Source of the DNA: Bacteroidota bacterium
Lineage (GTDB): Bacteria; Bacteroidota; Bacteroidia; Bacteroidales; P3
Assembly (NCBI GenBank): GCA_017860255.1
Contig: JAFNAR010000007.1
Coordinates: 153-64,152, forward strand
Direction of reading: 5' to 3'
Length of the DNA: 64,000 bases
In this document: in pieces, positions 2,147-13,346 of the stretch
How the letters are laid out: the number at the start of each line of letters is the position of its first letter
Numbering within the stretch: position 1 is the first letter of the stretch
Program-made: the position numbers and the translations under genes
Notes under the pieces: generated by a model
Seen by the model: only the letters and a program-made list of their open reading frames with translations
Told to the model about the DNA's origin: nothing
The model's database searches: none

Positions 2147-3784
2147 ATGAAAAAAGCAATACTAATTTTAATAGCATCCATTTTTGCAATAAGTTTAAAC
2201 TCTAAGGCCGAAGACTTTTCGGCTTTTTATAATGGTGATACTATTTATTATAAAATCACTTCCAGTGTTTCTCCTCTTACTGTTGGGGTAACTTTTAAAG
2301 GTCCTATATATTATTATTATAATGAATATGCTGGCAGTGTATCAATTCCTGATTCAGTTGAGTTTAATGGCAATTACTACAGGGTTACTTCAATTGACAC
2401 TTCTGCTTTTGCCAAATCAAGGGTTATGTCAGTAAATATTCCAAACTCGGTTACTTATATTGCTGAAATGGCTTTTACTGATTGTGACAGTTTAACTTCA
2501 ATAATTATTCCAAACTCTGTTACCCGTATTGGTTCTTCTGTTTTTATGAATAGCAATTACTTAACATCTGTAACCATTCCAAACTCTGTTACTGAAATTG
2601 GACCTGGTGTTTTTTCTGGATGTAGTGGTTTAACATCTTTTACAATACCAAATTCCATTTCTAAGATTAGTAATTTTATGTTTATGGGATGCAGTGGATT
2701 AACCTCATTGACAATTCCAAACAATATTACCTCAATTGGATATTATTCTTTCAGAGAATCTGGATTGTCCTCTTTAAATATTCCCAATACTGTTAATTTT
2801 ATAGACCAATATGCTTTTTACCTATGTGGTGGATTAACTTCAATTGATTTACCTGATTCAATTTCTTTTATTAGTTATGGTACTTTTTGGGGTTGTAGTG
2901 CATTAACATCTTTAACAATACCAAGCACTGTTGATACTATTGATGATTATGCTTTTTATAAATGCAGTGGATTAACTTCAATAATTAGTGAACCAACAAC
3001 TCCTCCTGTTATCAGAACTCCAAATAGTATTTTTAATATTAACAGAGCTATTCCAGTTTATATTCCTTGTGGTTCGCTTTCAAGTTATCAATCTGCTCAA
3101 TATTGGAGTTTGTTTACAAATTTTATTGAAAGGAATTTCCAATATATTGATACCTCAATTTGCGATGGAGATAGTTATAATTTTAATGGTACTATTATTG
3201 ACTCGGCTGGTGTTTATTCTTATGTGAGCGGTTGTGATAGTGTAATTTTAACTTTAAATATTACTCCAATTCCTATCGTTCCTCATGATTTAAGCTTAAG
3301 CAATATTCAGATTAATAATGTTGAAATTAGTTGGCAAGGCGATGCTGAAAGTTATGATGTTTATCGTGATGATAGTTTAATTGTTAATGTTACTGATACT
3401 ACCTATGTGGATAATTTTAATTTTAATAATGGACAAACTTATTGTTATAACATAAAAGCTAAAAATGGTAGTGGTTGTGAAAGTGCATTAAGTGATACTA
3501 ATTGTTTTGTAATTGTTGGATTAGAAAATATAGAAAACACAAATATTCAAACAAAGCTCTACCCTAACCCAACAAATAATAAATCATATTTGGAAATTGA
3601 AGGCTTAACCTCAGAGGCTGATGTTTTGGTTTATGATATGGTTGGAAGGCTTATTCAAAAGCATAAAGTTAATCAAGGAACAAAAGAATTAGAGATTGAT
3701 TTAAGCACTTACTCTAAGGGTGTTTATTCAATAAGAATAGTAAACGAAAGCATTAGTCAAACCAAGAAACTTATTGTTCAATAA
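2147..3784 (+). CDS. BspA-type LRR surface protein with T9SS type A C-terminal sorting domain (array gene 1)
   Basis: Signal peptide MKKAILILIASIFAISLNSKA (the ATG at 2120 is an alternative start). Head motif DFSAFYNGDTIYYKITSS. About 10 copies of a 23-aa repeat LTSxTIPNSVTxIGxxAFxxCxx. One C..GCDS repeat. Fn3-like segment (ISWQGDAESYDVYRDD...CYNIKA). C-terminal KLYPNPT...GVYSIRI...KKLIVQ tail. Confidence 0.85.
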   Translation: MKKAILILIASIFAISLNSKAEDFSAFYNGDTIYYKITSSVSPLTVGVTFKGPIYYYYNEYAGSVSIPDSVEFNGNYYRVTSIDTSAFAKSRVMSVNIPNSVTYIAEMAFTDCDSLTSIIIPNSVTRIGSSVFMNSNYLTSVTIPNSVTEIGPGVFSGCSGLTSFTIPNSISKISNFMFMGCSGLTSLTIPNNITSIGYYSFRESGLSSLNIPNTVNFIDQYAFYLCGGLTSIDLPDSISFISYGTFWGCSALTSLTIPSTVDTIDDYAFYKCSGLTSIISEPTTPPVIRTPNSIFNINRAIPVYIPCGSLSSYQSAQYWSLFTNFIERNFQYIDTSICDGDSYNFNGTIIDSAGVYSYVSGCDSVILTLNITPIPIVPHDLSLSNIQINNVEISWQGDAESYDVYRDDSLIVNVTDTTYVDNFNFNNGQTYCYNIKAKNGSGCESALSDTNCFVIVGLENIENTNIQTKLYPNPTNNKSYLEIEGLTSEADVLVYDMVGRLIQKHKVNQGTKELEIDLSTYSKGVYSIRIVNESISQTKKLIVQ

Positions 3785-3802
3785 AATAGAATCAATTATA
3801 TC

Positions 3803-13100: not shown

Positions 13101-13346
13101 TCTAATATCTCTACTAAACTATATCCAAACCCAACAGAAGGTAAAGCAAGATTAGAAGTTGAAGGCTTAACCTCTGAGGCTGATGTTTTGGTTTATGATA
13201 TGGTTGGAAGAGTAATTCAAACTTATAAGATTAATCAAGGCACAAAAGAATTAGAAATTGATTTAAGCACTTACGCTAAAGGAGTTTATTCAATAAGAAT
13301 AGTAAACAAAAGCATAAATCAAACTAAGAAACTTATTGTTCAATAA
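10125..13346 (+). CDS. Large double-headed BspA-type LRR surface protein with T9SS type A sorting domain (array gene 6)
   Basis: 1073 aa. Signal peptide, head and LRR block 1, two C..GCDS repeats, then a second head (GKTIYYKLTSSVSPQTVTVTYKG) with LRR block 2, five more C..GCDS repeats, an Fn3-like segment and a T9SS tail. Confidence 0.85.
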   Translation: MKKLLLVLFAISFALTQKAYSEDFSSVYNGDTIYYNITSSVSPFTVGVTYKGYSANDFLNEYSGAVTIPDSVEYNSNYYKVTSIGDYAFVNCYGLTSIILGNSVTSIGLFAFSVCSGLTSITIPNSVTSIDVGAFVGCSGLTSITIPNSITSINDNVFDLCSGLTSITIPNSVTSIGLTAFRGCTGLTSITIPSSVISIGDDAFSECYGLTSVNIPNSVTTIGERAFMSCNSLTSLTLPSSLTSIEFDAFYNCNSLTSITSNAITPPIVQSNAFYNVNKSIPLYIPCHSLSLYQSNIYWSEFTNKIGFKTPQFLTTSICEGETYSNYGANLDSAGVYTLVNGCDSVILTLNINPPYRDTVYAKILQGQTYTQNGFNENITGLYTDTLQSINGCDSIITLNLSVVDTFSVVNNEGKTIYYKLTSSVSPQTVTVTYKGSFFYSYSEYDGNIIIPDSVLYNGNYYKVTSISDYAFADSYGLTSLSIPNSITSIGEYAFYHCMGMVSVNIPASIAYIGSSAFKHCNGLTSITIPNSVTTIGESTFYDCNNLTSIIIPNSITSIGSYAFSECIGLTSITIPNSVNLISYSAFQYCTGLTSINCEAATPPSIQSNTFYNVSQSIPVYVPCGSDSLYHAASYWSSFPNIQGEFDSDTIIFDTICQGEILTVSGYNFDTAGIYTLNLDTYLGCDSIVTLNLFVNPTYNDTIYSEICQGESFTLNGFNVNTAGLHTQTLQTINGCDSILNLSLVVNPTYNDTIIAEICQGETYTLNGFNENIAGFYTQTLQTIKGCDSIVNLTLTINQPATTNLVAEICQGETYTLNGFNESVAGFYTQTLQTNKGCDSIVNLNLIVNPISYTTYYDTVCQGVIYNNYGFNFNADTSGIYNQNLQTINGCDSTIVLNLVVNPTPSVPYNIDFPSISFNRVDVIWQGNALSYDIYRNDSLIANVNSNYYVDSIVLIIGETYCYKVKAINGDCESEISDDNCFYYYGLNNINQSNISTKLYPNPTEGKARLEVEGLTSEADVLVYDMVGRVIQTYKINQGTKELEIDLSTYAKGVYSIRIVNKSINQTKKLIVQ

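What the first reader, a model, noticed from the sequence alone, without database searches (positions are those of the whole stretch)
2147..13346. Six-gene tandem array of mosaic LRR / T9SS-anchored surface proteins built from interchangeable modules
Seen in sequence: six same-strand genes share one layout. Each has a signal peptide, a ~45-aa head (DFS..YNGD.IYY.ITSS), a variable block of 23-aa BspA-type LRRs, 0 to 7 copies of a ~51-aa two-Cys repeat, an optional Fn3-like segment, and a ~75-aa T9SS type A tail that stays near-identical even at nucleotide level. Two-Cys repeat counts per gene are 1, 1, 2, 3, 0 and 7. Gene 3 replaces the LRR head with an unrelated domain. Gene 5 lacks both the stalk repeats and Fn3. 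Gene 6 carries two heads. Genes 1-5 are separated by only 15-18 bp, with a single promoter-like box upstream (2072) and one terminator (9944). Gene 6 has its own promoter box and terminator. Inference: this is a co-transcribed, rapidly reshuffling cassette locus for displayed adhesin-like proteins. A constant secretion/anchor chassis carries variable binding heads. No recombinase, reverse transcriptase or invertible promoter is present, so any diversification would run on homologous recombination between modules. This is my best candidate for an undescribed organised system in the window.
Basis: partly seen in the sequence, partly recalled or inferred. Interest (0 to 1): 0.75.

Follow-up and report, generated by a model that had tools for sequence, protein, structure and literature searches.

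The report
Tandem array of T9SS-displayed LRR adhesins
Six neighbouring genes of an uncultured Bacteroidales bacterium encode modular surface proteins that share one secretion/anchor tail and are reshuffled by ordinary homologous recombination; arrays like this are already known in related bacteria, so it is a good example, not a new system.

Summary
Six same-strand genes (2147-13346) each have a signal peptide and a T9SS type A C-terminal domain (CTD). Five carry BspA-type LRR domains. Gene 3 has an unrelated beta-sandwich head. Two-Cys repeat counts are 1,1,2,3,0,7.

The CTDs evolve in concert. Gene 3's CTD is 91-94% identical in DNA to its neighbours' CTDs but 83% to that of its ortholog. 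Synonymous divergence is 0.24 in the CTD against about 0.52 in other modules.

A syntenic locus in Bacteroidales bacterium UBA5515 has only three genes, and two of them are mosaics of the window genes. A sister array differs between close strains by one gene, with a mapped crossover in the signal-peptide/N-cap region. A gene-3 cassette, 95% identical in DNA, sits in that foreign array.

Nothing points to programmed switching. The window has no recombinase, reverse transcriptase or invertible promoter. Three assemblies of the UBA5515 type are 99.98% identical.

The kind is known. Flavobacterium psychrophilum has 16-23 consecutive T9SS LRR genes with strain-variable number. Tannerella KLIKK proteases share a near-identical CTD on different heads.

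One by-product: the two-Cys stalk repeat is very common (28,874 cluster representatives) and has no model in the Pfam and NCBIfam copies searched.

The parts
1837..2146 (+). Upstream control region of genes 1-5, with a Bacteroidetes-type -7 box TAAGTTTG at 2072-2079
   Evidence: Motif position. About 93% identical to the region upstream of the UBA5515 array, box included. The motif alone is not above chance.
2147..3784 (+). Gene 1 (545 aa): signal peptide, LRR_5 domain, C-cap, one short two-Cys unit (3155-3265), Fn3-like domain (3266-3535), CTD (3557-3781)
   Evidence: NCBI MBP1644943.1, 'leucine-rich repeat protein'.
3803..5179 (+). Gene 2 (458 aa): signal peptide, short LRR_5 domain, C-cap, one short two-Cys unit (4556-4672), Fn3-like domain, CTD (4955-5176)
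5195..6742 (+). Gene 3 (515 aa): signal peptide, about 225-aa non-LRR beta-sandwich head, two two-Cys units (5936-6238), Fn3-like domain, CTD (6515-6739)
   Evidence: No Pfam or PDB sequence match for the head. AlphaFold model of the head at pLDDT about 70-85, with fold hits to MAM and Eph ligand-binding ectodomains plus FN3. Orthologs 87-93% identical in protein.
6758..8704 (+). Gene 4 (648 aa): signal peptide, long LRR_5 domain (381 bits), C-cap, one short and two long two-Cys units (7772-8209), Fn3-like domain, CTD (8483-8701)
8721..9917 (+). Gene 5 (398 aa): signal peptide, LRR_5 domain with an inserted non-LRR segment, C-cap, then the CTD directly (9690-9914). No stalk and no Fn3.
9944..9967 (+). 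Intrinsic-terminator-like hairpin plus T-run after gene 5
   Evidence: Weak resemblance to the terminator after the array.
10094..10101 (+). -7 box TATATTTG upstream of gene 6
   Evidence: Positional evidence only.
10125..13346 (+). Gene 6 (1073 aa): two complete LRR units. The first is signal peptide, LRR and C-cap followed by two repeats. The second starts with an N-cap at 11343, then LRR and C-cap followed by five repeats (12078-12836). Then Fn3-like domain and CTD (13119-13343). It looks like a fusion of two array genes that lost one Fn3/CTD/spacer/signal-peptide junction.
   Evidence: The second N-cap FSVVNNEGKTIYY follows directly on a repeat end (read from the sequence).
13369..13396 (+). 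Hairpin after gene 6, conserved in UBA5515

Best explanation
This is a paralogous array of cell-surface proteins of an uncultured Bacteroidales bacterium (about 30% G+C).

How each product is made and displayed (inferred from the families):
- It is exported by Sec through its signal peptide.
- The type IX secretion system recognises its type A C-terminal domain.
- By analogy with Porphyromonas and Tannerella, the CTD is then cut off and the protein is attached to the outer surface.

What each product looks like:
- The tip is a BspA-type LRR solenoid or, in gene 3, a jelly-roll-like beta-sandwich. Both are most likely binding (adhesin) modules.
- The tip sits on a stalk of 0-7 small disulfide-type beta domains (the two-Cys repeat) plus an Fn3-like domain.

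Transcription: genes 1-5 are probably one operon and gene 6 a second unit.

How the array changes: general homologous recombination between the conserved parts. These are the 3' end of the CTD, the 15-18-nt spacer, the signal peptide/N-cap, the LRR units and the stalk units. Unequal crossing-over adds, deletes and fuses genes. Gene conversion keeps the CTDs alike. Whole one-gene cassettes can land in other arrays.

Shown here: domain content, concerted evolution, copy-number differences, mosaic orthologs and one crossover junction.

Inferred: secretion, surface attachment, adhesion, the operon, and any selective benefit of variation.
For: Domains: LRR_5, Por_Secre_tail and TIGR04183 score above cut-off.

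T9SS in the same contig: a PorZ homologue (127.8 bits), GldD and a CHU_C type B cargo.

Stalk: the three-unit model has pLDDT 86.7. Its best PDB matches are the Ig-like neck of the T9SS filament GhpA (9flp, E 3.6e-7) and Rib stalk domains. Relatives of the gene-3 head carry 2, 3 or 9-11 units.

Concerted evolution: the CTD has mean DNA identity 0.90 and pS 0.24. Fn3 has pS 0.52 and the head 0.53. Gene 3's CTD is 91-94% identical to genes 1, 2, 4 and 5 but 83% to its ortholog u2, although the Fn3 domains of gene 3 and u2 are 89% identical. The PHI test on Fn3+CTD of nine genes gives p=0.0005.

Structural variation: the syntenic locus of UBA5515 has flanks 86-95% identical and holds three genes. 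u1 and u3 are mosaics. The u1 5' end matches gene 5 at 94%. The u3 tail matches gene 1 at 84-94%. The u3 CTD matches genes 5 and 3 at 95%.

Sister array: L007 and L008 are 94-97.5% identical and differ by one LRR gene. The switch from m2-type to m3-type sequence lies inside the signal-peptide/N-cap region.

Cassette spread: m4 is 95% identical to gene 3 overall and 98-99% in the head. It sits in an array whose other CTDs are only 57-65% identical to it.

Precedents with experimental secretion data: PMC5682007, PMC8400371, PMC4404884.
Against: - There are no expression, secretion or binding data for this organism.
- The promoter motif is not statistically distinctive.
- PHI is only marginal within the window genes (p=0.059) and not significant in the 5' region.
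- Three assemblies of the UBA5515 type are 99.98% identical with the same structure. Exchange is therefore not fast enough to be seen within that lineage.
- Exact matches between window genes are at most 64 nt, a poor substrate for frequent RecA-dependent exchange.
- The lower pS in the CTD could partly reflect constraint on the DNA or mRNA.
Confidence: 0.75

Rival explanations
1. Static old gene family. The six genes are ancient duplicates. The CTD looks conserved only because of purifying selection, and there is no continuing exchange.
For: Most modules are only 60-78% identical in DNA. PHI is not significant in the 5' region and marginal within the window. The UBA5515-type locus is invariant in three assemblies.
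Against: Synonymous divergence in the CTD is half that of other modules. Gene 3's CTD is closer to its paralogs than to its ortholog. The gene number is 6 versus 3 at the syntenic locus and 4 versus 3 in the sister array, with a mapped crossover. Orthologs are mosaic.
Confidence: 0.1
2. Programmed high-frequency variation system. This would be phase or antigenic variation by an invertible promoter, a site-specific recombinase, a diversity-generating retroelement, or silent-cassette conversion.
For: Conserved gene boundaries: the last ~21 nt of the CTD plus an ATATC-ATGAAAAAA junction are kept even between divergent arrays. Surface adhesins are typical targets of such systems.
Against: The ORFs of 150 aa or more between 1 and 53 kb that were scanned show no integrase, invertase or reverse transcriptase. 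There are no convincing inverted repeats around either promoter. All six genes are intact with their own signal peptides, so none is a silent cassette. Three assemblies of one lineage are identical.
Confidence: 0.05
3. Assembly artefact. The array is a chimeric or collapsed short-read assembly of repeats from several strains or loci.
For: The source is a MEGAHIT metagenome contig (k141_3585761), and the region is repeat-rich.
Against: The longest exact match between genes is 64 nt, below k=141. A second assembly of 67,942 nt is listed for four of the six protein clusters, and all six proteins are also held by NCBI as consecutive records. The UBA5515 array was assembled identically three times by different pipelines. 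Reading frames are intact throughout.
Confidence: 0.05
4. Not adhesins. The heads bind nutrients or polymers, or have an enzymatic role, for example capturing glycans for the cell.
For: The gene-3 head is a jelly-roll-like beta-sandwich. The sister array begins with a protein carrying a faint precomputed hit to the proprotein-convertase P-domain family. The relatives named by their sources are MAGs, one of them from a bioreactor metagenome.
Against: No catalytic domain was detected. BspA-type LRR proteins that have been studied are adhesins (PMC7014623 and the references in it).
Confidence: 0.2

Closest known systems
Tandem LRR cell-surface protein array of Flavobacterium psychrophilum (PMC8400371; T9SS-dependent exoproteome in PMC5682007)
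   Same: Consecutive same-strand genes encode BspA-type LRR proteins with a TIGR04183 CTD. The gene number varies between strains (16-23 there; 6 versus 3 here). The proteins are candidate adhesins.
   Different: The array here is smaller and comes from an uncultured Bacteroidales bacterium. Its members also carry a two-Cys stalk and an Fn3-like domain, and one member has a non-LRR head. There is no secretion or virulence evidence here.
KLIKK proteases of Tannerella forsythia (PMC4404884)
   Same: Several clustered T9SS cargo genes carry different N-terminal functional domains on a shared, nearly identical C-terminal extension and CTD. The whole array is present or absent between close relatives.
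   Different: The heads there are proteases of three catalytic classes. Here they are LRR and beta-sandwich binding domains. Conservation of the CTD here is 85-94% in DNA, lower than 'nearly identical'.
BspA of Tannerella forsythia and its six homologs (PMC7014623)
   Same: An LRR_5 domain followed by beta-sandwich domains and a T9SS CTD, forming a multigene family that varies between strains.
   Different: The BspA stalk is made of other domains (bacterial Ig-like; from my own knowledge, not tested here), not the two-Cys repeat. The NCBIfam adhesin equivalog HupY/LrrG scores far below its cut-off (63-131 versus 1250 bits).
GhpA grappling hook of Aureispira and Rib-domain stalks of Gram-positive adhesins
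   Same: Tandem small beta domains form a stalk of variable length below a binding tip. GhpA is a T9SS substrate with disulfide bonds between neighbouring Ig-like domains (bioRxiv 10.1101/2024.01.29.577165). It is the best structural match of the two-Cys repeat.
   Different: Only the fold is similar (19% identity, TM about 0.37 over three units). A sequence profile finds nothing in the PDB. There is no evidence that these proteins form filaments.

Membership tests
BspA-type LRR proteins (Pfam LRR_5, PF13306) | HMM score above the gathering threshold (27.7 bits) | tested here: met
   Genes 1, 2, 4, 5 and 6 score 189, 79.5, 381, 150 and 397 bits. Gene 3 has no hit.
T9SS type A cargo | C-terminal sorting domain (TIGR04183 / PF18962) at the extreme C-terminus | tested here: met
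   All six score 43-51 bits against a cut-off of 23 and 48-55 bits against 27. Each match ends at the last residue.
T9SS type A cargo | N-terminal Sec signal peptide | tested here: met
   Read from the sequence: MKK, a hydrophobic core, then a small-x-small site (for example NSQA/HDFS) in all six. No predictor was run.
T9SS type A cargo | T9SS machinery in the same genome | tested here: met
   PorZ N-terminal propeller (127.8 bits) at 17557-19926 and GldD (175.5 bits) at 28609-29199 on the same contig. The core genes porK-N and sov are not in the window.
T9SS type A cargo | T9SS-dependent export, CTD cleavage and surface attachment | not testable with these tools
   Needs proteomics or mutants of an uncultured organism.
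Strain-variable tandem LRR adhesin array (F. psychrophilum type) | Consecutive same-strand LRR + CTD genes | tested here: met
   Five LRR genes and one non-LRR gene with gaps of 15-207 nt.
Strain-variable tandem LRR adhesin array (F. psychrophilum type) | Gene number differs between close relatives | tested here: met
   6 versus 3 genes between identical flanking genes. 4 versus 3 genes in the sister array.
KLIKK-like shared-CTD array | Unrelated heads on a nearly identical C-terminal extension | tested here: inconclusive
   Gene 3's head is unrelated to LRR but shares the stalk, Fn3 and CTD chassis. The CTD is 85-94% identical in DNA and Fn3 only 59-78%.
Adhesin HupY/LrrG (NCBIfam NF047961 equivalog) | Score above the 1250-bit equivalog cut-off | tested here: not met
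   29-131 bits. Only the LRR region matches.
Programmed variation systems (DGR, shufflon or invertible promoter, silent-cassette conversion) | Reverse transcriptase, site-specific recombinase, flanking inverted repeats or promoterless silent copies | tested here: not met
   None among the ORFs scanned between 1 and 53 kb. Only AT-rich chance inverted repeats. All copies are complete genes.

The most novel reading that the evidence does not exclude
The conserved gene boundaries act as portable junctions. They consist of the last ~21 nt of the CTD, a 15-18-nt spacer ending in ATATC, and the ATGAAAAAA signal-peptide start. They are kept even between arrays whose CTDs are otherwise about 60% identical. 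Through them, single-gene 'head cassettes' would be exchanged between arrays and between genomes, giving a population-wide shared pool of adhesin heads on a T9SS chassis. The 95%-identical gene-3 cassette, which sits in a foreign array with a CTD unlike its new neighbours, would be one such transfer.
Probability: 0.15. Interest if true: 0.55.

Novelty: new member of a known kind. Interest (0 to 1): 0.3.

Why it matters
This is a clean example, resolved to the sequence level, of how Bacteroidota vary their T9SS-displayed surface proteins without any dedicated machinery.
- Unequal crossing-over changes the gene number.
- Gene conversion keeps the secretion tag uniform.
- Stalk repeats change the reach of the protein.
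- Single-gene cassettes move between arrays.

For annotation, it flags three recurrent modules that have no model in the Pfam and NCBIfam copies searched. The first is the two-Cys stalk repeat, found in 28,874 cluster representatives and in proteins of up to 6,310 aa. The second is the gene-3 head. The third is the LRR C-cap.

It does not open a new mechanism or a long-standing question.

Tried and rejected
- Sigma-70 promoter scan: fewer sites than in shuffles, so uninformative.
- Bacteroidetes -33/-7 pattern: 31 matches against 25.6 expected, not distinctive.
- Inverted repeats around both promoters: only AT-rich chance pairs. The best pair is simply the two divergent MKK signal-peptide starts.
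- Pfam at E up to 10 for the gene-3 head, the two-Cys region, Fn3, the N-cap and the C-cap: nothing credible.
- PDB sequence searches with gene 3 and with the repeat profile: nothing.
- P0006, a 797-aa protein on the 67,942-nt contig, looked like a structural variant. It is the C-terminal 797 residues of gene 6 from a different gene call.
- Scans of GTDB genomes and JGI metagenomes with the flanking DUF4153 protein returned only the UBA5515 type. No further syntenic arrays were obtained.
- I tried to decide whether the sister array (L002 type) lies in the same genome as the window. A homolog search with its neighbouring SAM hydrolase gene found no hit from the window's MAG (locus-tag prefix H6Q16). 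This remains undecided.
- I tested whether the intergenic region between genes 5 and 6 is a fusion of the array terminator and the array promoter. The similarity is borderline (score 26-30; shuffles reach 30-40).
- The first AlphaFold model of gene 3, built from 9 sequences, gave the repeats pLDDT 26-48. A dedicated repeat alignment was needed.
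Full report
**What is there**

The window comes from a 67,972-nt metagenome contig (ENA ERZ27276616, k141_3585761). Its six proteins are also deposited at NCBI as consecutive records MBP1644943-48 of a 'Bacteroidetes bacterium' MAG. They are named there 'leucine-rich repeat protein', 'hypothetical protein' and 'flavobacterium repeat protein'.

Six + strand ORFs lie at 2147-3784, 3803-5179, 5195-6742, 6758-8704, 8721-9917 and 10125-13346. The gaps between them are 18, 15, 15, 16 and 207 nt.

Pfam LRR_5 hits genes 1, 2, 4, 5 and 6 far above threshold. Por_Secre_tail and TIGR04183 hit all six. An HMM of the two-Cys unit finds 1, 1, 2, 3, 0 and 7 copies. No other ORF in the window carries either module.

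Refinements to that description:
- The '45-aa head' is the N-terminal cap of the LRR domain.
- A recurrent C-cap (TPP...IP.Y[VI]P...YQ...W..F) closes each LRR domain.
- The first unit after a C-cap is a distinct short subtype of 37-44 aa.
- Gene 6 is two complete LRR units in one frame. The second N-cap (aa 407) follows directly on a repeat end. This is what a fusion of two array genes would leave after losing one Fn3/CTD/spacer/signal-peptide junction.

**Is it real?**

The longest exact match between any two of the genes is 64 nt, below the assembler's k of 141. A second assembly of 67,942 nt is listed for four of the six protein clusters, and all six proteins are also held by NCBI. The related UBA5515 array was assembled identically three times. 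I see no sign of a chimeric assembly.

**Modules with no family model**

Neither Pfam nor NCBIfam (local copies) models the two-Cys repeat, the gene-3 head, the Fn3-like segment or the caps.

A model of gene 3 built from nine homologs has mean pLDDT 64, with the head at about 70-85 and Fn3 and CTD at about 80. The head is a beta-sandwich. The best PDB matches are multi-domain ectodomains of the MAM-Ig-FN and Eph type, and FN3 tandems align to the Fn3-plus-CTD part.

A model of three two-Cys units built from 26 sequences has pLDDT 86.7. Its best PDB matches are the Ig-like neck fragments of GhpA, the T9SS-secreted grappling hook of Aureispira (9flp, E 3.6e-7), followed by Rib stalk domains of Gram-positive adhesins. 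GhpA's stem is a chain of Ig-like repeats with disulfide bonds between neighbouring domains (bioRxiv 10.1101/2024.01.29.577165).

The repeat profile finds 28,874 representatives of 50%-identity clusters at E<=1e-3, and 9,816 at 1e-30. These include proteins of up to 6,310 aa with dozens of units. In the 120 best homologs of gene 3, copy numbers run from 1 to 14. The repeat occurs with LRR_5 or PKD heads and with either type A or CHU_C tails. Relatives of the gene-3 head carry 2, 3 or 9-11 units. All of this fits a stalk of variable length.

**Context**

The contig is core chromosome. It carries RecO, a PorZ homologue 4 kb downstream, a CHU_C+PKD type B cargo, GldD, RuvC, a class Ib (Trp/Tyr-type) tRNA synthetase gene, a GlmS-like gene and NADH dehydrogenase (nuo-type) genes. 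No integrase, invertase or reverse transcriptase was found among the ORFs scanned between 1 and 53 kb. Neither promoter region has convincing inverted repeats.

**Evidence for exchange**

1. *Concerted evolution.* CTD DNA identity among the six genes averages 0.90 with pS 0.24. Fn3 has pS 0.52 and the head 0.53. Gene 3 has a clear ortholog, u2, in Bacteroidales bacterium UBA5515: the signal-peptide region is 98% and Fn3 89% identical. Yet gene 3's CTD is 83% identical to u2's and 91-94% to those of genes 1, 2, 4 and 5. The PHI test on Fn3+CTD of nine genes gives p=0.0005. Within the window alone it gives p=0.059, and the 5' region is not significant.

2. *Copy number.* In UBA5515 (L004, L005, L006) the same flanking genes enclose only three genes of 641, 515 and 714 aa. 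Flank identity to the window is 86-95%. Gene u2 corresponds to gene 3. Genes u1 and u3 are mosaics. The u1 5' end matches gene 5 at 94%. The middle of u3 matches genes 4 and 5. The u3 tail matches gene 1 at 84-94%, and its CTD matches genes 5 and 3 at 95%.

3. *A mapped crossover.* A sister array (L002/L008) holds an 843-aa gene, two LRR genes and a gene-3-like gene, in a different genomic context. A strain 94-97.5% identical to it (L007) has one LRR gene fewer. The alignment switches from m2-type to m3-type sequence inside the signal-peptide/N-cap region, which is the signature of unequal homologous recombination.

4. *A travelling cassette.* Gene m4 of that sister array is 95% identical in DNA to gene 3, and 98-99% in the head. 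The homology starts in the spacer and stops at the end of the CTD. Its CTD resembles the window CTDs (85-91%) and not its own neighbours' (57-65%). The cassette therefore probably came from a window-type array. I could not decide whether the transfer was between loci of one genome or between genomes.

**Limits**

Three assemblies of the UBA5515 type are 99.98% identical over 11 kb and structurally the same. One of them has a nonsense mutation in the CTD of u2. Exchange is thus visible between lineages, not within one. I found nothing that indicates programmed switching.

The operon of genes 1-5 is inferred from three things. The gaps are short. The upstream region is about 93% conserved and includes TAAGTTTG at 2072. 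One terminator lies at 9944-9967. The promoter motif by itself is not above chance.

**Comparison with what is known**

Flavobacterium psychrophilum has a region of about 21 kb with 16-23 consecutive LRR protein genes, and the number differs between isolates (PMC8400371). Several of them carry TIGR04183 and are lost from the exoproteome of gld mutants (PMC5682007).

Tannerella forsythia has six KLIKK protease genes in two clusters, with different catalytic heads on a nearly identical CTD. They are absent from a close relative (PMC4404884). It also has BspA plus six homologs that vary between strains (PMC7014623).

The present locus combines these known features. It adds a well-resolved recombination history and a stalk made of a common repeat that the Pfam and NCBIfam copies searched do not model.

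**Verdict**

The locus is a new member of a known kind, of modest interest.

Noticed in passing
window 11070-11342 and 12078-12836 (gene 6); also 5936-6238 and 7772-8209: The ~51-aa two-Cys repeat (IC.GE.Y..NGFN....G.Y...LQT..GCDS.V.L.L.VNP) has no model in the Pfam and NCBIfam copies used. Its profile nevertheless hits 28,874 representatives of 50%-identity clusters, including proteins of up to 6,310 aa. Its fold resembles the GhpA neck and Rib domains. The precomputed Pfam lists mention PF27219 and PF26451, which are missing from the local copy, so I could not check whether a newer model covers it.
   Followed up: partly
window 5258-5935 (gene 3, aa 22-247): A conserved head domain of about 225 aa, with many invariant residues across nine homologs. 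It has no Pfam, NCBIfam or PDB sequence match. It is predicted to be a beta-sandwich resembling MAM and Eph ligand-binding domains.
   Followed up: partly
window 759-1292 and 1297-1836 (- strand); L005 1579-3196: Two tandem paralogous secreted proteins of 177 and 179 aa, with no family match, lie divergently upstream of the array. The UBA5515 locus has three copies, so this small family also varies in number.
   Followed up: no
window 17557-19926 (-), 25395-27677 (-), 28609-29199 (+): A PorZ homologue (T9SS attachment complex), a PKD+CHU_C type B T9SS cargo and GldD lie within 16 kb downstream of the array. The organism therefore has T9SS and gliding-type components.
   Followed up: partly
window 9944-9967 and 13369-13396: The hairpins after gene 5 and after gene 6 share the palindromic centre GATTAATC and some flanking similarity. 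The gene-5 terminator may be a diverged copy of the array's terminal terminator, but the similarity is borderline against shuffles.
   Followed up: partly
L004 11458 (versus L005 6994): One of the three otherwise identical UBA5515-type assemblies has a premature stop in the CTD of the gene-3 ortholog (485 instead of 515 aa). That variant would lose its secretion signal.
   Followed up: no
window 3764-3802, 5159-5194, 6722-6757 and 8684-8720; L002 7900-7960: The last ~21 nt of every CTD (AAGAAACTTATTGTTCA, encoding KKLIVQ), the short spacer ending in ATATC, and the ATGAAAAAA start are conserved. This holds even in the sister array, whose CTDs are otherwise only about 60% identical.
   Followed up: partly
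window 10400-10696 (- strand): A 98-aa ORF lies antisense to the LRR region of gene 6. It is itself repetitive. It is most likely a by-product of the periodic LRR coding sequence and not a gene.
   Followed up: no
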